A program made the translations under genes and the position numbers. Under the pieces are notes generated by a model. The model was not told the DNA's origin, ran no database searches, and saw only the letters and a program-made list of their open reading frames with translations. DNA of 64,000 nucleotides from a bacterium (GTDB lineage Bacteria; Planctomycetota; JAFGQW01), in the NCBI GenBank assembly GCA_030426805.1, contig JAUHXU010000004.1, forward strand, positions 46,792 to 110,791. Reading direction: 5' to 3'. Shown here one piece after another: positions 23,233 through 25,871 of this stretch (its first letter is position 1; each line of letters begins with the position of its first letter).

Positions 23233-24579
23233 TCACAGCTTCACGTAGATCCGTCGCCAGTGCAGGAGGCCGACGCCCACGGTCGCGAGCGTCACGAACG
23301 CGATCGCCCACGCGAGCGACGCGTCGGTGCGCAGCGTGAACGCCGGGTCGAACAGCGAGGTCATCGCGGCGCGTTTGACGCCGAGTCGGCTCGCGGCCTG
23401 CGCCGCCATCCCGGCCGCGACGAAGACGAGGATCGCGTTGCGTCCGTGCCACACGAACGGTGCCGCGAGTCGGGCGCCGGCGCCGCGCTCGAACGCGATC
23501 CGACAGACCGCGAGCGCGAGGCACGCCAGGCCGGCGGTGAAGAGCGCGAAGCTCGTCGACCAGAGCCGCTTGTTGATCGGGAAGTCGAGGCCCACGGCCC
23601 ACCCGAGCGCCGCGAGCGCGACGCCGCCGACGACGAGTCCGCCGATTCGGTCGCGCTCGCGAACGTCGGTGCGTCCGAGCCACCGCCCGGCGAGGACCCC
23701 CAGTGCGACGGTCGCGGCCGCCGGGATCGTGCTGAGCACGCCCTCCGGATCGAACGACCAGATCAGCGCGCCGTCGGCGTCGCGGAGCTTCCGGACCGCC
23801 CAGACGTGCTCGCCGAGTGCGTGAAAGTCGACCCAGAAGCACCAGTTCGAGAAGAGCATCGCGCGGGGGGTCGACGCGGTCGGGAACGCGCGGTCGAGGT
23901 CGGCCGGGCCGAAACCGGGCACCGGGACGTAGACCATCCAGAGCCAGTAGGCGGCGAGTGCGACGGCGGTCGCGACCGCGATCGTGCGCACGCGCGGGCA
24001 GAGCAGGTAGAGCGCGGCGACGACGACGTAGCACACCCCGATGCGGACGAGCACGCCGGGCACGCGGAGGTGCGCGATGCGGCGGACGAGGGCGTCGTCC
24101 GGTGCGACGAGCGGCGCCGCGACGGCGGCCACCGCGGCGCCGGCGACCAGCGCGACGAGCGCGCCGCGCGGGCGTCGGCCGAGGAGCGCGGCCAGGGCGC
24201 CGATCACGGCGACGACCGCACCCACCCGGAGGACGACACCGGCCGCGTCGATCGACGGCGGCATCGCGATCGCGCTGAACGTGCCGCCCCAGTAGCCGAG
24301 CAGCGCGAGCGCGAGCCCCCGTCGCACGACGTGGCCGACGATCGCGCCGCGCGACGCGCCGCCGGCGACGCGGCGGTCGAACGCGATCGGAATCGCGACG
24401 CCGACGATGAACAGGAAGAACGGAAAGACGAGGTCGGTCGGCGTCCAGCCGTTCCACGCCGCGTGGCGCAGCGGCGCGTGGATCGCGCCCCAGTGGCCCG
24501 GATTGTTCACGAGCAGCATCGCCGCGACGGTCGCGCCACGGAAGGCGTCGAGCGACGTCGACCGACTGTGCTGCTGCAT
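23233..24579 (-). CDS. DUF1624/HGSNAT-like transmembrane acyltransferase (heparan-alpha-glucosaminide N-acetyltransferase family)
   Basis: N-terminal RSTSLDAFRGATVAAMLLVNNPGHW is the family signature, followed by ~10 TM helices. Confidence 0.65.
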   Translation of the reverse strand: MQQHSRSTSLDAFRGATVAAMLLVNNPGHWGAIHAPLRHAAWNGWTPTDLVFPFFLFIVGVAIPIAFDRRVAGGASRGAIVGHVVRRGLALALLGYWGGTFSAIAMPPSIDAAGVVLRVGAVVAVIGALAALLGRRPRGALVALVAGAAVAAVAAPLVAPDDALVRRIAHLRVPGVLVRIGVCYVVVAALYLLCPRVRTIAVATAVALAAYWLWMVYVPVPGFGPADLDRAFPTASTPRAMLFSNWCFWVDFHALGEHVWAVRKLRDADGALIWSFDPEGVLSTIPAAATVALGVLAGRWLGRTDVRERDRIGGLVVGGVALAALGWAVGLDFPINKRLWSTSFALFTAGLACLALAVCRIAFERGAGARLAAPFVWHGRNAILVFVAAGMAAQAASRLGVKRAAMTSLFDPAFTLRTDASLAWAIAFVTLATVGVGLLHWRRIYVKL

Positions 24580-24677
24580 CGGGGGGCTCCTCGGGACGAC
24601 GGGCGAGGGTAGCGGCCGGGCGATGGTCGTGCAAGGCGTGTCGACCTGATACGATCGGCGCCGGAGAGGAGTCGGCG

Positions 24678-25871
24678 ATGCGCGCTCGAAGGGTTCTCGC
24701 GTCGATCGCGCTGTCGATCGCCGCGGTCGTCCAAACCGACCGGATCGCGTGGGCGCAAGCTGTGGCGCCGGTCGCGTGGACGCACGAGGTCGTCGGGGTC
24801 GGCGTCGTCCTGCGGACGTGTGCGTGCGAGTTGGCCGGACTGCCGCAGACGGTGTCGGTGCTCGAGGTGGACCCGCGGGAGGGGGCGCGGCTCGCGCTCG
24901 CGTGTCCGGGCGGTTTCGTCGGCACGCGGGCGATCGGTCGGGCGCGGGCAGCGGTCGCGGCCGTCAACGGCGGGTTCTTCGACCGGCAGGGTCGTTCGGT
25001 CGGCGTGCTGCGGATCGGCGGCGAGGCGTTCGGCGCGCGGCACGACAATCGAACGACCGGCGTCGTGATCGACGAGCGGGGGCGGGCGCGGATCGCGACC
25101 GACGCGCGTGCGTCCTTCGACGGCGTGCGCGACGTGATGACCGCGGGGCCGCTACTCGTGGCCGATGGCGCGGTCGTCGCGGGCGCGAAGGACTGGTCCA
25201 AGACGCGCCACCCGCGCACCGCGGTGGGGCGGCGGCGCGACGGCGTCGTCGTGTTCGTGCCGATCGACGGGCGCACGGTCGCGTCCCGCGGGGTGTCGCT
25301 CGCGGTGCTCGCCGACTACATGCGGGAACTCGGCTGCGTCCGCGCGCTGAATCTCGACGGTGGTGGGTCGACGACGATGTGGGTGCGCGGCGAACCGGAA
25401 GGCGGGATCGTCAACCACCCGTGCGACAACCGTCGGCACGACCACGCGGGCGAGCGCAAGGTGCCGAACGCGATCGTCGTGATCGCGCGGGATGTCGTCG
25501 TCGGTGAGACCGAGGACGCCGTCTTCGAACCGGACGGCGCGTGGCGTCGATCGACCGATGGGGCGGCGTTCGCGGGGCGTGACTGGCGCCGTGCGAACGC
25601 ACCCGGCGCCCGTGCGCGCTGGCGGCTCCCGGTCGACTTCGTCGGCGAATGGACGGTCGAGATCTGGTCGCCGCGCGCCGAGGGCCTCGCTCGTGCGCGG
25701 CTGTCCGGCGCGGGGCTCGACGTCGTGGTGGACCAGGCGACGGGTGGCGGCGCGTGGCGCGCGGTCGGGACCGTCCGCGTCGATGCGCCGGGCGTCGTCG
25801 AACTCGAACTCGCCTCGATCGGGTCGGGCGTGCTCGCCGCGGACGCGGTGCGGCTCGTCCAGCGCGGTTGA
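24678..25871 (+). CDS. phosphodiester glycosidase family protein (NAGPA 'uncovering enzyme'-like, DUF2233)
   Basis: Signal peptide, then VNGGFF, RTAVG and NLDGGGSTTMW motifs of the family. Confidence 0.65.
   Translation: MRARRVLASIALSIAAVVQTDRIAWAQAVAPVAWTHEVVGVGVVLRTCACELAGLPQTVSVLEVDPREGARLALACPGGFVGTRAIGRARAAVAAVNGGFFDRQGRSVGVLRIGGEAFGARHDNRTTGVVIDERGRARIATDARASFDGVRDVMTAGPLLVADGAVVAGAKDWSKTRHPRTAVGRRRDGVVVFVPIDGRTVASRGVSLAVLADYMRELGCVRALNLDGGGSTTMWVRGEPEGGIVNHPCDNRRHDHAGERKVPNAIVVIARDVVVGETEDAVFEPDGAWRRSTDGAAFAGRDWRRANAPGARARWRLPVDFVGEWTVEIWSPRAEGLARARLSGAGLDVVVDQATGGGAWRAVGTVRVDAPGVVELELASIGSGVLAADAVRLVQRG

What the first reader, a model, noticed from the sequence alone, without database searches (positions are those of the whole stretch)
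23233..25871. Adjacent bacterial homologues of two human lysosomal enzymes (HGSNAT-like and NAGPA-like), divergently arranged
The DUF1624 protein carries the N-terminal LDxFRG...NNPGHW signature of acetyl-CoA:alpha-glucosaminide N-acetyltransferase. The neighbour has the NGGFF/NLDGGGS motifs of the GlcNAc-1-phosphodiester alpha-GlcNAcase family. A phosphodiester-GlcNAc 'uncovering' activity next to a transmembrane acetylase hints at processing of GlcNAc-1-P-containing polymers (teichoic-acid-like or capsule) or of de-acetylated glycans.
Basis: partly seen in the sequence, partly recalled or inferred. Interest (0 to 1): 0.65.

Follow-up and report, generated by a model that had tools for sequence, protein, structure and literature searches.

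The report
Lysosome-like enzymes in cell-wall scavenging cluster
Two adjacent bacterial genes really are relatives of the human lysosomal enzymes HGSNAT and NAGPA, but they are not a conserved pair: both sit in a ten-gene cluster for digesting bacterial cell wall, where they probably clear chemical blocks that would stall the enzymes trimming the sugar chain.

Summary
Gene 23233-24579(-) encodes a 448-aa membrane protein with the HGSNAT fold. It keeps every catalytic, acetyl-CoA-contacting and glucosamine-contacting residue of human HGSNAT. Gene 24678-25871(+) encodes a 397-aa exported protein with a NAGPA (PF09992) catalytic domain that keeps the DGGGS loop. It also carries a C-terminal CBM6/35-like 'Golvesin_C' module. 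The genes are divergent, 98 bp apart.

The pairing is lineage-specific. It recurs only in a 77-84% identical relative. No HGSNAT-like gene lies within 10 kb of 80 other NAGPA-family genes or of seven more distant subfamily homologues. No NAGPA gene lies near three HGSNAT-like orthologues.

Both genes belong to a peptidoglycan catabolism cluster (18169-35467). It holds a DigH-like GHL10, two amidases, a NagZ-AmiE-like fusion, an SSS-transporter-NamZ fusion, a MurNAc/GlcNAc-type kinase, NagB and a PBP-like protein. NAGPA-family genes sit directly beside NamZ in two unrelated genomes.

Best reading (inferred): the acetyltransferase re-acetylates periplasmic glucosamine, as NagX does. The NAGPA-like enzyme removes sugar-1-phosphate-linked substituents from wall glycan. 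Both steps would unblock exo-lytic digestion. Each gene is a new member of a known family. The cluster is a new variant of known recycling operons. Interest is moderate.

The parts
23233..24579 (-). HGSNAT-like / NagX-like transmembrane acetyl-CoA:glucosaminide N-acetyltransferase. 448 aa, about 12 TM helices, apparently monocistronic.
   Evidence: phmmer vs PDB: human HGSNAT at 3e-19. NCBIfam NagX_SO_3504 at 4.8e-38, 131 bits, below the 480-bit equivalog cutoff. AF2 pLDDT 93.9. Foldseek top 15 hits are all human HGSNAT. Residues N25, H39, D49, R14, M21, R87, R172 and E279 align to human N286, H297, D307, R275, M282, R345, R372 and E499; all but R14 (nearly invariant) are invariant in 46 homologues.
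24580..24677 (.). 98-bp divergent intergenic region, presumed to hold both promoters.
   Evidence: Sequence. About 85% identical to the 77%-relative L087, with conserved blocks. No sigma-70 consensus was found here.
24678..25871 (+). Exported NAGPA-family (PF09992) phosphodiester glycosidase with a C-terminal Golvesin_C (CBM6/35-like) module. 397 aa, N-terminal signal peptide. First gene of a five-gene co-directional block.
   Evidence: Pfam NAGPA 1.5e-40 and Golvesin_C 1e-9. PDB 3OHG 3e-15, vertebrate NAGPA 2e-9. Profile vs PDB 1e-22 to 1e-25. AF2 pLDDT 86.5. Foldseek: 3OHG, 6PKU, then CBM35/CBM6 for residues about 275-397. DGGGS 227-231 and R260 are invariant in 34 homologues.
25907..26878 (+). 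BadF-type sugar kinase (NagK/MurK-like), cytoplasmic.
   Evidence: Pfam BcrAD_BadFG 2e-25. NCBIfam NagK_SO3507 2e-28. Best PDB hit is 8ZO3, 'N-acetylmuramic acid/N-acetylglucosamine kinase', at 4e-24. 35-bp gap after the NAGPA-like gene.
26859..29675 (+). Exported GH3 NagZ (exo-beta-N-acetylglucosaminidase) fused to a PF00144 beta-lactamase-fold domain. I interpret the second domain as an AmiE-like exo-muramoyl-L-alanine amidase.
   Evidence: Pfam Glyco_hydro_3 3e-87, Glyco_hydro_3_C, Beta-lactamase 8e-71. B. subtilis has the operon amiE-nagZ-namZ (PMC8054146). PF00144 is also fused to NamZ in more than 60 proteins.
29672..32422 (+). Sodium:solute symporter fused to the exo-beta-N-acetylmuramidase NamZ (GH171). 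916 aa.
   Evidence: Pfam SSF 7e-32, NamZ_N 6e-86, NamZ_C 4e-42 in one ORF. The same 916-aa gene was called in an independent assembly, L001. The fusion architecture recurs widely.
32510..35467 (+). Exported Germane + Golvesin_C + Amidase_3 + fn3 protein (N-acetylmuramoyl-L-alanine amidase).
   Evidence: Pfam. Gene call in L001.
22065..23231 (+). Amidase_3 lipoprotein, convergent with the HGSNAT-like gene. The start is uncertain (22065 or 22119).
   Evidence: Pfam Amidase_3 3e-36. Lipobox-like 'LLVFASAC'.
20865..22043 (-). GHL10 lipoprotein, homologue of the E. coli denuded-glycan hydrolase DigH.
   Evidence: Pfam GHL10 5e-36. BLASTP to E. coli DigH: 25% identity, E = 4e-20. DigH itself scores 6e-136 on GHL10. 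DigH function from PMC12288456.
20173..20868 (-). NagB, glucosamine-6-phosphate deaminase.
   Evidence: Pfam Glucosamine_iso 5e-26. NCBIfam nagB models 1e-47 to 5e-43, below cutoffs.
18169..20154 (-). Exported class-A beta-lactamase-like + PG_binding_1 + Peptidase_S11 (DD-carboxypeptidase) fusion.
   Evidence: Pfam. NCBIfam.

Best explanation
The two genes are accessory members of a roughly 17-kb cluster (18169-35467) that dismantles peptidoglycan outside the cytoplasm and feeds its amino sugars into metabolism. They are not a dedicated two-gene module.

Shown:
1. The cluster encodes exported or lipoprotein amidases, a DigH-like glycan hydrolase, a NagZ-AmiE-like fusion, a NamZ exo-muramidase fused to a sodium symporter, a MurNAc/GlcNAc-type kinase and NagB.
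2. The membrane protein has the HGSNAT fold with the complete catalytic and substrate-binding residue set.
3. The neighbour is a signal-peptide-bearing NAGPA-family enzyme. It keeps the sugar-phosphate-binding DGGGS loop and the two phosphate ligands, and it carries a carbohydrate-binding-module-like domain.

Inferred mechanism:
1. Amidases strip the peptides and the GHL10 enzyme cuts the denuded strands. NagZ, the AmiE-like domain and NamZ then remove GlcNAc, peptide and MurNAc in turn from the non-reducing end, as in B. subtilis.
2. This exo-lytic chain stalls at modified residues.
3. The HGSNAT-like enzyme uses cytoplasmic acetyl-CoA to N-acetylate periplasmic glucosamine. The substrate could be free GlcN, as proposed for NagX, or a terminal GlcN of N-deacetylated peptidoglycan. 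Acetylation restores a substrate for NagZ, the transporter and the kinase. This is the same logic as lysosomal heparan sulfate breakdown.
4. The NAGPA-like enzyme cleaves the C1-O bond of a sugar-1-phosphate diester attached to wall glycan. The most likely target is the GlcNAc-1-P-6-MurNAc linkage that anchors teichoic acids and other secondary polymers. Cleavage would uncover the MurNAc residue for NamZ.
For: Cluster content and limits.

Operon layout: a 35-bp gap, then 20-bp and 4-bp overlaps between successive genes from the NAGPA-like gene onward.

HGSNAT-like gene:
- Sequence match and fold match.
- Residue mapping to the human catalytic dyad H297-D307, the oxyanion residue N286, the CoA ligands R275, M282 and R345, and the GlcN ligands R372 and E499. 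All but R14 (nearly invariant, >=90%) are invariant across 46 homologues.
- Genetic evidence and the proposal for NagX as a transmembrane GlcN N-acetyltransferase (PMC9007349).

NAGPA-like gene:
-.
- DGGGS is essential and invariant, and T260 and R316 bind phosphate in human NAGPA (PMC13474241). DGGGS 227-231 and R260 are invariant in 34 homologues; T200 is conserved in the window protein, inferred from the conserved DG(R/H)T motif.
- The C-terminal domain has a CBM6/35-like fold. It belongs to the same Pfam family found on the cluster's large amidase and on a GHL10 protein near a Planctomycete homologue.

Link of the NAGPA family to wall-glycan exo-lysis elsewhere:
- A NAGPA-family gene is the immediate, co-oriented neighbour of stand-alone NamZ in a Mucilaginibacter polysaccharide utilisation locus (PUL; DeoR-NAGPA-NamZ-SusC-SusD-Metallophos) and in a Gemmatimonadaceae MAG (NamZ-NAGPA).
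- The 58% orthologue has a GHL10 gene as its divergent neighbour.

Other parts:
- The kinase is closest to a MurNAc/GlcNAc kinase.
- The B. subtilis amiE-nagZ-namZ precedent.
- PF00144 is fused to NamZ in many genomes.
Against: - No enzyme in this cluster has been assayed. Both substrate assignments rest on context and homology.
- The pairing and the cluster are seen only in this lineage.
- Other members of the 400-aa NAGPA subfamily lie in unrelated or biosynthesis-like contexts (GT2, methyltransferases).
- Across the family, the commonest immediate neighbours are GT2 and GtrA (10 and 9 of 133). That pattern points to polymer biosynthesis or lipid-linked sugars rather than catabolism.
- The human N-acetyl-contacting residues E226/T227 align to a non-conserved loop (D172/W173), so the sugar specificity is open.
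- Human NAGPA acts on a terminal GlcNAc, whereas the linkage-unit GlcNAc carries further sugars.
- NagA and MurQ, which are needed to complete GlcNAc and MurNAc catabolism, are not in the window.
- Three 47-50% identical orthologues of the HGSNAT-like protein lie in unrelated contexts.
- The protein scores far below the NagX equivalog cutoff.
- The two NamZ adjacencies are 2 of 80 loci. Their significance is my own rough estimate, not a computed statistic.
Confidence: 0.5

Rival explanations
1. Two independent jobs. The HGSNAT-like protein is a NagX-type enzyme for salvage of free glucosamine (chitosan- or wall-derived). The NAGPA-like protein works on the organism's own envelope or exopolysaccharide, for example by trimming or recycling sugar-1-phosphate-linked or polyprenyl-phosphate-linked sugars. 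It would have no role in peptidoglycan catabolism, and its place at the head of the operon would be incidental.
For: - The family-wide neighbours of NAGPA genes are mostly GT2 and GtrA.
- The P0010 homologue sits among glycosyltransferases and methyltransferases.
- The source annotation for many members is 'exopolysaccharide biosynthesis protein'.
- NagX genetics concern free GlcN.
Against: - There is a tight co-directional arrangement with the kinase, NagZ and NamZ genes (35-bp gap, then overlaps).
- There are two independent NAGPA-NamZ adjacencies in other phyla.
- GHL10 is a neighbour in two further subfamily contexts.
- No glycosyltransferase or polymer-export gene is present in this cluster.
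Confidence: 0.25
2. The HGSNAT-like protein is a transporter, not an enzyme. It would be a MurT-like importer of MurNAc or another wall sugar, as reported for the distantly related T. forsythia MurT.
For: - The NagX family is distantly related to TfMurT (PMC9007349).
- MurT lies in a peptidoglycan-recycling cluster with MurK and MurQ (PMC7670621).
- Here the gene lies next to a MurK/NagK-like kinase.
Against: - All catalytic and acetyl-CoA-binding residues of HGSNAT are retained, and all but R14 (nearly invariant) are invariant in 46 homologues. There would be no reason for this in a pure permease.
- The fold matches only HGSNAT and the acyltransferase GWT1, and no transporter fold.
- HGSNAT itself does not translocate its substrate (PMC11199644).
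- The cluster already has a dedicated symporter fused to NamZ.
- I could not obtain the TfMurT sequence, so no direct comparison was made.
Confidence: 0.1
3. A dedicated two-gene module. The acetylase and the uncovering-type glycosidase would act in sequence on one and the same GlcN/GlcNAc-1-phosphate polymer, and would be inherited together.
For: - They are divergently adjacent, sharing a 98-bp control region.
- The arrangement is conserved in a 77-84% identical relative.
Against: - 0 of 80 family loci and 0 of 7 more distant subfamily homologues carry an HGSNAT-like gene.
- 0 of 3 HGSNAT-like orthologue loci carry a NAGPA gene.
- The only conservation is at a distance where whole-cluster synteny is expected anyway.
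Confidence: 0.07

Closest known systems
Human HGSNAT (heparan-alpha-glucosaminide N-acetyltransferase; PDB 8JKV, 8VKJ, 8TU9)
   Same: Same transmembrane acyltransferase fold (Foldseek E = 2e-15, TMq 0.68). Identical catalytic His-Asp dyad, Asn oxyanion residue, CoA ligands and GlcN ligands. The inferred logic is the same: acetylate a terminal or free GlcN on the far side of the membrane so that an exo-N-acetylglucosaminidase pathway can proceed.
   Different: It lacks the roughly 260-residue N-terminal luminal domain and first TM helix of the human enzyme. It carries an insertion of about 60 residues (two extra helices, roughly residues 96-170). Identity is only 23%. It would work at periplasmic rather than lysosomal pH. 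The substrate is presumably beta-linked GlcN of peptidoglycan or chitosan, or free GlcN, rather than alpha-GlcN of heparan sulfate.
NagX (Shewanella SO_3504 family; putative transmembrane glucosamine N-acetyltransferase; Price et al. 2022, PMC9007349)
   Same: Best NCBIfam hit (4.8e-38). Bacterial, lacks the luminal domain, and conserves the catalytic His. It is found with nagK/nagB-type genes.
   Different: It scores 131 bits against an equivalog cutoff of 480. It is 448 aa against 309-395 aa, because of the two-helix insertion. Here it is embedded in a peptidoglycan-hydrolase cluster rather than a chitin/GlcNAc (nagP-nagA) operon. No NagA or NagP is present in the window.
Human/vertebrate NAGPA ('uncovering enzyme'; PDB 6PKG-6PKY, 6U11) and Bacteroides ovatus BACOVA_00430 (3OHG, DUF2233)
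   Same: Same catalytic fold. The invariant DGGGS loop and the two phosphate-binding side chains are retained. It is extracytoplasmic, as the human enzyme is luminal.
   Different: It has no propeptide, EGF stalk or membrane anchor, and instead carries a C-terminal CBM6/35-like Golvesin_C module. Identity is about 20%. The N-acetyl-contacting E226/T227 are not conserved. The substrate cannot be a Man-6-P glycan. No bacterial member has a demonstrated natural substrate in the literature I could search.
Bacillus subtilis murQ-murR-murP-amiE-nagZ-namZ and Tannerella forsythia peptidoglycan-scavenging clusters
   Same: The same exo-lytic trio is present: NagZ, a beta-lactamase-fold AmiE-like amidase, and NamZ. 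All are secreted and are coupled to uptake and a sugar kinase.
   Different: The domains are fused here (NagZ-AmiE-like; symporter-NamZ). No MurQ, MurR or PTS is present. There are extra DigH-like GHL10, Amidase_3, PBP-like, HGSNAT-like and NAGPA-like genes, none of which are described in those operons.

Membership tests
HGSNAT-type transmembrane acetyltransferases (Pfam PF07786 HGSNAT_cat / PF16401 DUF5009) | Significant sequence similarity to the HGSNAT catalytic membrane domain | tested here: met
   phmmer vs PDB gives human HGSNAT at 3e-19 to 3e-17, in two stretches covering residues 6-95 and 171-388. Pfam DUF5009 scores 4e-6, just above its 25-bit cutoff (26.8 bits). PF07786 itself was not reported at E <= 0.01.
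HGSNAT-type transmembrane acetyltransferases (Pfam PF07786 HGSNAT_cat / PF16401 DUF5009) | Catalytic His297-Asp307 dyad and Asn286 (human numbering) | tested here: met
   H39, D49 and N25 align to them (residue roles from PMC11199644). All three are invariant in 46 homologues.
HGSNAT-type transmembrane acetyltransferases (Pfam PF07786 HGSNAT_cat / PF16401 DUF5009) | Acetyl-CoA pore and GlcN-binding residues (R275, M282, F310/P311/F313/F315, R345; R372, E499) | tested here: met
   R14, M21, F52/P53/F55/F57, R87, R172 and E279 align to them. All are invariant in alignment A2 except R14, which is nearly invariant.
HGSNAT-type transmembrane acetyltransferases (Pfam PF07786 HGSNAT_cat / PF16401 DUF5009) | Three-dimensional fold | tested here: met
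   AF2 model with pLDDT 93.9 and pTM 0.93. The top 15 Foldseek PDB hits are all human HGSNAT (E = 2e-15 to 1e-12). Next is GWT1, and no transporter fold appears.
HGSNAT-type transmembrane acetyltransferases (Pfam PF07786 HGSNAT_cat / PF16401 DUF5009) | Acetyl-CoA-dependent N-acetylation of glucosamine across the membrane | not testable with these tools
   This needs enzymology.
NagX (NCBIfam NF046061 equivalog) | Score at or above the curated equivalog cutoff (480 bits) | tested here: not met
   131.2 bits, E = 4.8e-38. It is a relative, not an equivalog.
NagX (NCBIfam NF046061 equivalog) | Location in a GlcNAc/chitin utilisation operon with nagP, nagK, nagA and nagB | tested here: inconclusive
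   A NagK-like kinase and NagB are in the cluster. No NagA, NagP or chitinase is in the window, and the surrounding genes are peptidoglycan hydrolases.
Phosphodiester glycosidases (Pfam PF09992 NAGPA / DUF2233) | Pfam model above gathering score | tested here: met
   139.6 bits against a cutoff of 25, E = 1.5e-40, covering 166 of 169 model positions.
Phosphodiester glycosidases (Pfam PF09992 NAGPA / DUF2233) | Invariant DGGGS loop (human D286-S290) | tested here: met
   D227-G-G-G-S231, invariant in 34 homologues. Role taken from PMC13474241.
Phosphodiester glycosidases (Pfam PF09992 NAGPA / DUF2233) | Phosphate-binding side chains (human T260, R316) | tested here: met
   T200 in 'DGRT' aligns with the vertebrate 'DGQT/DGHT'. 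R260 in 'GERKV' is invariant in A1 and aligns with R in 3OHG and 6OZD. The equation with human residue numbers rests on motif spacing and my recollection of the human sequence, not on a printed alignment.
Phosphodiester glycosidases (Pfam PF09992 NAGPA / DUF2233) | GlcNAc N-acetyl recognition (human E226, T227) | tested here: not met
   The vertebrate 'QET' aligns to a variable loop, '...KDWSKT' (D172/W173), in the window protein. The sugar specificity is therefore not established.
Phosphodiester glycosidases (Pfam PF09992 NAGPA / DUF2233) | Fold of the catalytic domain | tested here: met
   Foldseek: 3OHG at 2.5e-15, TMt 0.72; guinea-pig NAGPA 6PKU at 3.5e-13, TMt 0.68-0.72.
Phosphodiester glycosidases (Pfam PF09992 NAGPA / DUF2233) | Hydrolysis of a GlcNAc-alpha-1-phosphodiester | not testable with these tools
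   This needs enzymology.
Conserved HGSNAT-like + NAGPA-like gene pair (the module implied by the finding) | Co-occurrence or adjacency beyond the immediate lineage | tested here: not met
   0 of 80 family loci and 0 of 7 more distant subfamily homologues carry an HGSNAT-like gene. 0 of 3 reverse contexts carry a NAGPA gene. The pair is present only in the 77-84% identical relative L087.
Exo-lytic peptidoglycan catabolism cluster (B. subtilis amiE-nagZ-namZ type) | Secreted NagZ, AmiE-type amidase and NamZ encoded together | tested here: met
   GH3 + PF00144 fusion with a signal peptide, and NamZ_N/NamZ_C fused to a symporter. The genes are adjacent and overlapping. Precedent in PMC8054146.
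Exo-lytic peptidoglycan catabolism cluster (B. subtilis amiE-nagZ-namZ type) | MurNAc-6-P etherase MurQ and its regulator in the cluster | tested here: not met
   No SIS/MurQ, MurR or NagA gene was found among the window's predicted genes. They may lie elsewhere in the genome.

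The most novel reading that the evidence does not exclude
Bacterial peptidoglycan catabolism would use the same 'de-blocking' logic as the lysosome, with homologous enzymes. A transmembrane acetyl-CoA-dependent N-acetyltransferase would re-acetylate GlcN at the non-reducing ends of N-deacetylated glycan strands. An uncovering-enzyme homologue would cut the GlcNAc-1-P-6-MurNAc anchor of teichoic acids and other secondary wall polymers. That cut would leave MurNAc-6-P, the MurQ substrate, and free the strand for processive NagZ-AmiE-NamZ exo-lysis. 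This would give the first natural substrate for the bacterial DUF2233/NAGPA family and the first enzyme known to detach wall polymers at the linkage unit.
Probability: 0.2. Interest if true: 0.7.

Novelty: new variant of a known kind. Interest (0 to 1): 0.45.

Why it matters
No bacterial NAGPA/DUF2233 protein has a demonstrated natural substrate in the literature I could search, even though a crystal structure has existed since 2010. NagX-type acetyltransferases rest on fitness data only.

This locus places one member of each family in a well-defined biochemical setting. That setting is an extracytoplasmic exo-lytic peptidoglycan pathway with NagZ, an AmiE-like amidase, NamZ and a DigH-like enzyme. 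It therefore suggests concrete substrates that can be tested: N-deacetylated muropeptides, and teichoic-acid-bearing or GlcNAc-1-P-6-MurNAc-containing glycan.

If the hypothesis holds, it would explain how wall scavengers cope with the two commonest glycan modifications of Gram-positive walls. It would also show that two steps of lysosomal glycan processing have bacterial counterparts in cell-wall turnover.

If it fails, the finding is simply two correctly recognised family members that happen to be neighbours in one lineage.

Tried and rejected
1. Metagenome scan for close relatives of the NAGPA-like protein. It returned only two 24%-identical hits, so it was useless for synteny.
2. Genome scan with the subfamily alignment. 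They serve as a family-level control only.
3. Naming the organism. Exact-sequence cluster look-up gave no accession or name. Named homologues point in different directions: Planctomycetota, Rhodothermales, Longimicrobiales, Gemmatimonadaceae and Acidobacteriota. Taxonomy is left undetermined.
4. Promoter and terminator consensus scan of 18000-37000. There was nothing above the shuffled expectation apart from one promoter-like site before the amidase gene. This is uninformative in a 71% G+C genome.
5. Literature search for a characterised bacterial NAGPA-family enzyme. One query was wasted on author-name matches. The key paper, Das et al. 2013, is not held. Only a computational mention of NAGPA domains in Bacillota wall-targeting multidomain proteins was found.
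6. Testing whether the two Golvesin_C copies in the window are close paralogues, which would imply the same ligand. Pairwise E = 0.07, so this was rejected. They share only the family.
7. Direct comparison with T. forsythia MurT. The sequence could not be obtained with the tools available.
8. A search of the window's predicted genes for MurQ, NagA, AnmK or a regulator. None was found.

Full report
**What is at the coordinates**

The window is about 71% G+C, so I called genes from codon-position G+C bias.
- 23233-24579 on the minus strand is a 448-aa ORF starting with ATG.
- 24678-25871 on the plus strand is a 397-aa ORF starting with ATG.
- Both have GC3 of about 0.9 and low GC2, as the other real genes here do.
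- They are divergent and separated by 98 bp.
- The quoted motifs are present: SLDAFRG...VNNPGHW, NGGFF and NLDGGGS.
- Identical proteins are on record from an NCBI contig of 698,920 bp and from independent Logan assemblies.

**The membrane protein is a true HGSNAT homologue with an intact active site**

- Sequence search against all PDB chains finds only human HGSNAT, at E = 3e-19 to 3e-17.
- NCBIfam's best model is the 'transmembrane glucosamine N-acetyltransferase NagX' at 4.8e-38. At 131 bits it is far below the 480-bit equivalog cutoff.
- Pfam gives only a weak N-terminal DUF5009 match.

The HMMER alignment, read against the residue roles in the 2024 cryo-EM study (PMC11199644), gives this mapping from human to window protein:

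| Human | Window | Role |
|---|---|---|
| N286 | N25 | oxyanion |
| H297 | H39 | catalytic His |
| D307 | D49 | dyad partner |
| R275 / M282 / R345 | R14 / M21 / R87 | CoA contacts |
| F310, P311, F313, F315 | F52, P53, F55, F57 | pore |
| R372 / E499 | R172 / E279 | GlcN 6-OH and 3-OH |

- All of these but R14 (nearly invariant, >=90%) are invariant in an alignment of 46 homologues.
- An AlphaFold model built on that alignment has pLDDT 93.9.
- Its 15 best Foldseek matches in the PDB are all human HGSNAT (E = 2e-15, TMq up to 0.68). The acyltransferase GWT1 follows. Canonical transporters appear only at non-significant scores.
- Compared with the human enzyme, it lacks the N-terminal luminal domain and has about 60 extra residues (two helices, roughly 96-170).

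**The neighbour is a true NAGPA-family enzyme with a carbohydrate-binding-type tail**

- Pfam NAGPA scores 1.5e-40, plus Golvesin_C at 1e-9.
- PDB sequence search gives the Bacteroides DUF2233 structure 3OHG (3e-15) and vertebrate NAGPA (2e-9 to 7e-8).
- A profile of 34 homologues raises vertebrate NAGPA to 1e-22 to 1e-25 over most of the catalytic domain.
- The model (pLDDT 86.5) matches 3OHG and guinea-pig NAGPA (TMt about 0.7). Residues of about 275-397 match CBM35/CBM6 modules.
- The N-terminus is a signal-peptide-like helix, so the protein is exported.

A 2026 cryo-EM study (PMC13474241) shows that DGGGS is invariant and essential. It also shows that T260 and R316 bind the phosphate, and that E226/T227 contact the N-acetyl group. 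In the window protein:
- DGGGS is D227-S231.
- The 'DGRT' threonine (T200) and the 'GERKV' arginine (R260) correspond to the two phosphate ligands. DGGGS and R260 are invariant in the subfamily; T200 is conserved in the window protein.
- The equation with human residue numbers is inferred from motif spacing.
- The E226/T227 positions fall in a variable loop.

A sugar-1-phosphate diester substrate is therefore well supported. The identity of the sugar is not.

**Context: a peptidoglycan catabolism cluster**

Pfam and NCBIfam scans show ten functionally coherent genes between 18169 and 35467.

| Coordinates | Strand | Product |
|---|---|---|
| 18169-20154 | - | class-A beta-lactamase-like + PG_binding_1 + S11 carboxypeptidase fusion |
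| 20173-20868 | - | NagB |
| 20865-22043 | - | GHL10 lipoprotein |
| 22065-23231 | + | Amidase_3 lipoprotein |
| 23233-24579 | - | HGSNAT-like gene |
| 24678-25871 | + | NAGPA-like gene |
| 25907-26878 | + | BadF-type kinase |
| 26859-29675 | + | GH3 NagZ fused to a PF00144 beta-lactamase-fold domain |
| 29672-32422 | + | sodium:solute symporter fused to NamZ |
| 32510-35467 | + | Germane + Golvesin_C + Amidase_3 + fn3 protein |

- The GHL10 lipoprotein is 25% identical (E = 4e-20) to E. coli DigH, the denuded-glycan hydrolase. DigH itself scores 6e-136 on GHL10.
- The kinase's best solved relative is a MurNAc/GlcNAc kinase, 8ZO3, at 4e-24.
- From the NAGPA-like gene onward, the genes are co-directional with a 35-bp gap and then 20-bp and 4-bp overlaps. 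They are probably one transcript.
- The HGSNAT-like gene stands alone between this block and the convergent amidase gene.
- Flanking genes are unrelated: CotH, an aminotransferase, an unknown protein and an ornithine/DAP decarboxylase.
- No MurQ, NagA, AnmK or regulator was found among the window's predicted genes.

NagZ, a beta-lactamase-fold amidase (AmiE) and NamZ are exactly the secreted exo-lytic trio of the B. subtilis murQ-murR-murP-amiE-nagZ-namZ operon (PMC8054146). The family assignment of AmiE to the beta-lactamase fold is from my own knowledge. It is supported here by the recurrent fusion of PF00144 to NamZ.

**Is the pair conserved? No.**

1. A 77% (NAGPA-like) and 84% (HGSNAT-like) identical relative keeps the order GHL10, amidase, HGSNAT-like, NAGPA-like, kinase. 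At that distance, whole-cluster synteny is expected anyway.
2. More distant members of the same 400-aa NAGPA+Golvesin_C subfamily have no HGSNAT-like neighbour (all checked again by HMM).
   - 58% (L088): the divergent neighbour is a GHL10 gene.
   - 49%: aminotransferase and other unrelated genes.
   - 44%: unknown proteins.
   - 40-41%: glycosyltransferases and methyltransferases with SpoIID nearby, or unrelated genes.
   - 36-40%, Planctomycetota: unrelated genes, apart from one GHL10+Golvesin_C gene 4 kb away.
3. Among 80 NAGPA-family loci from species-representative genomes, with up to 10 kb of flank, none has an HGSNAT-like gene. This holds by tblastn and by a profile HMM on all ORFs.
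4. In the reverse direction, three 47-50% identical orthologues of the HGSNAT-like protein have no NAGPA gene. They also have no wall cluster, although one has an SLT lytic transglycosylase gene directly upstream.

**What does recur with NAGPA-family genes**

- In a Mucilaginibacter genome, the gene order is DeoR regulator, NAGPA, NamZ (16-bp gap), SusC, SusD, then a Metallophos phosphoesterase with a beta-propeller.
- In a Gemmatimonadaceae MAG, NamZ is followed at once by a NAGPA-family lipoprotein gene.
- These NAGPA proteins differ in architecture from the window's and from each other. They are only 32% and 41% identical to it over partial lengths. The adjacency is therefore unlikely to be one inherited operon.
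- Two immediate NamZ neighbours among 80 loci is well above my rough expectation of about 0.04-0.08, assuming one or two namZ copies among about 4000 genes. That is an estimate, not a computed statistic. The sample is truncated and biased towards Bacteroidota.
- Family-wide, the commonest immediate neighbours are GT2 glycosyltransferases (10 of 133) and GtrA-type proteins (9 of 133), mainly in Firmicutes loci. Two GDPD phosphodiesterases also appear.
- Overall, the family is tied to envelope glycopolymers in general. A subset is tied to wall-glycan exo-lysis.

**Mechanism proposed (inferred)**

1. Amidases and the PBP-like protein strip and trim the peptides.
2. The DigH-like enzyme cuts the denuded strands.
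3. NagZ, the AmiE-like domain and NamZ remove GlcNAc, peptide and MurNAc stepwise from the non-reducing end.
4. The symporter fused to NamZ imports the released sugar.
5. The kinase phosphorylates it, and NagB handles GlcN-6-P.

Exo-lysis stalls at modified residues. The HGSNAT-like enzyme has its catalytic His on the periplasmic face and its acetyl-CoA pore open to the cytoplasm, as in HGSNAT. It would acetylate free GlcN, which is the NagX proposal (PMC9007349), or the terminal GlcN of N-deacetylated strands. Either way it restores a NagZ and kinase substrate.

The NAGPA-like enzyme would be targeted by its CBM-like module. It would cleave a sugar-1-phosphate diester on the glycan. The best candidate is the GlcNAc-1-P-6-MurNAc anchor of teichoic acids and other secondary polymers; the chemistry of that anchor is established knowledge. 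The phosphoesterase in the Mucilaginibacter locus would fit removal of the phosphate left behind.

I put this combined picture at about 0.5. The family identities stand at more than 0.95, the acetyltransferase activity at about 0.7, and the wall-linked phosphodiester substrate at about 0.4-0.45.

**Rivals**

- Unrelated jobs: free-GlcN salvage plus own-envelope polymer processing. About 0.25. This is supported by the GT2/GtrA neighbourhoods.
- A MurT-like transporter role for the membrane protein. About 0.1. The invariant catalytic and CoA-binding residues and the fold count against it.
- A dedicated two-gene module. About 0.07. The co-occurrence data count against it.

Whether the cluster serves recycling of the cell's own wall or scavenging of foreign wall cannot be decided from sequence. 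The exported location of NagZ, the AmiE-like domain and NamZ resembles the B. subtilis and T. forsythia systems rather than the cytoplasmic AmpG/NagZ/AmpD route.

**Novelty and score**

- Both proteins are new members of known families. NagX-type enzymes in amino-sugar loci were described in 2022.
- What is not described in the literature I could search is either family as part of an exo-lytic peptidoglycan cluster, or any link between NAGPA-family enzymes and NamZ.
- I rate the cluster a new variant of a known kind, with interest 0.45.
- A specialist would find the NAGPA-NamZ link and the lysosome-like logic suggestive and directly testable. The evidence is contextual, and the specific claim of a coupled pair does not hold.

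Noticed in passing
window 29672-32422 (+): A sodium:solute symporter and the exo-muramidase NamZ are one 916-aa ORF. An extra hydrophobic segment ('MRTAWPRAAALVALGALGVGC', about 31139) lies between them and would place NamZ in the periplasm. The fusion is real and widespread: homologues of 850-913 aa have the same architecture. More than 60 proteins of 1216-1459 aa add a PF00144 beta-lactamase-fold (AmiE-like) domain, for example in Granulicella paludicola. This looks like a 'cleave-and-import' machine. I did not check whether it has been described.
   Followed up: partly
L034 9920-19120 (Mucilaginibacter sp.) and L084 1115-3591 (Gemmatimonadaceae MAG): NAGPA-family genes lie immediately next to stand-alone NamZ genes and in the same orientation. 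In L034 they sit inside a Sus-type locus: DeoR, NAGPA, NamZ, SusC, SusD, Metallophos phosphoesterase/beta-propeller. This suggests a wider functional link between phosphodiester glycosidases and MurNAc release.
   Followed up: partly
L055, L063, L067, L068, L074, L076, L080, L082, L083 (mostly Clostridia/Bacillota loci), around position 10000: The immediate neighbours of 73 NAGPA-family genes include 10 GT2 glycosyltransferases and 9 GtrA/DPMS-type small membrane proteins. From ORF sizes and positions, these appear to form GT2-NAGPA-GtrA triads in Firmicutes. That would hint at lipid-phosphate-sugar substrates in that branch. The per-locus assignment was not verified.
   Followed up: no
window 26859-29675 (+): GH3 NagZ and a PF00144 beta-lactamase-fold domain (best NCBIfam hit PBP4B; AmpH-like) are fused in one exported 938-aa protein. 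This probably unites the NagZ and AmiE activities that are separate genes in B. subtilis.
   Followed up: partly
window 25497-25871, window 33200-33610, and L002 14899-16500: The Golvesin_C domain (PF25275) is named after a Dictyostelium Golgi protein. Here it appears on three different wall-hydrolase types: the NAGPA-like protein, an Amidase_3 protein and a GHL10 protein. It is predicted to have a CBM6/35-like beta-sandwich fold. The two copies in the window are only distantly alike, with pairwise E = 0.07. Its ligand is unknown.
   Followed up: partly
window 18169-20154 (-): An unusual three-part exported protein: a class-A beta-lactamase-like domain (Beta-lactamase2, 3.6e-70), PG_binding_1, and an S11 D-Ala-D-Ala carboxypeptidase.
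   Followed up: no
window 15203-17095 (+) and L096 3741-5807: A CotH-family kinase gene lies 7.6 kb upstream of the NAGPA-like gene in the window. Another lies 4 kb upstream of a 41%-identical NAGPA-like gene in an unrelated metagenome contig. This may be coincidence.
   Followed up: no
window 23233-24579 (-), protein residues about 96-170: The 450-480-aa subfamily to which this HGSNAT-like protein belongs carries about 60 extra residues, predicted to form two additional transmembrane helices. Human HGSNAT and the roughly 370-aa NagX-type proteins lack them. In other genomes the subfamily is not linked to nag or wall genes, although one member has an SLT gene directly upstream.
   Followed up: partly
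window 24580-24677 vs L087 3913-4015: The divergent intergenic region keeps conserved blocks (GACGACGG-GCGAGGGTAGC; GTCGACCTG-TACGATCGGCGC) in the 77%-identical relative. These are candidate promoter or operator elements. No regulator gene is present in the cluster.
   Followed up: no
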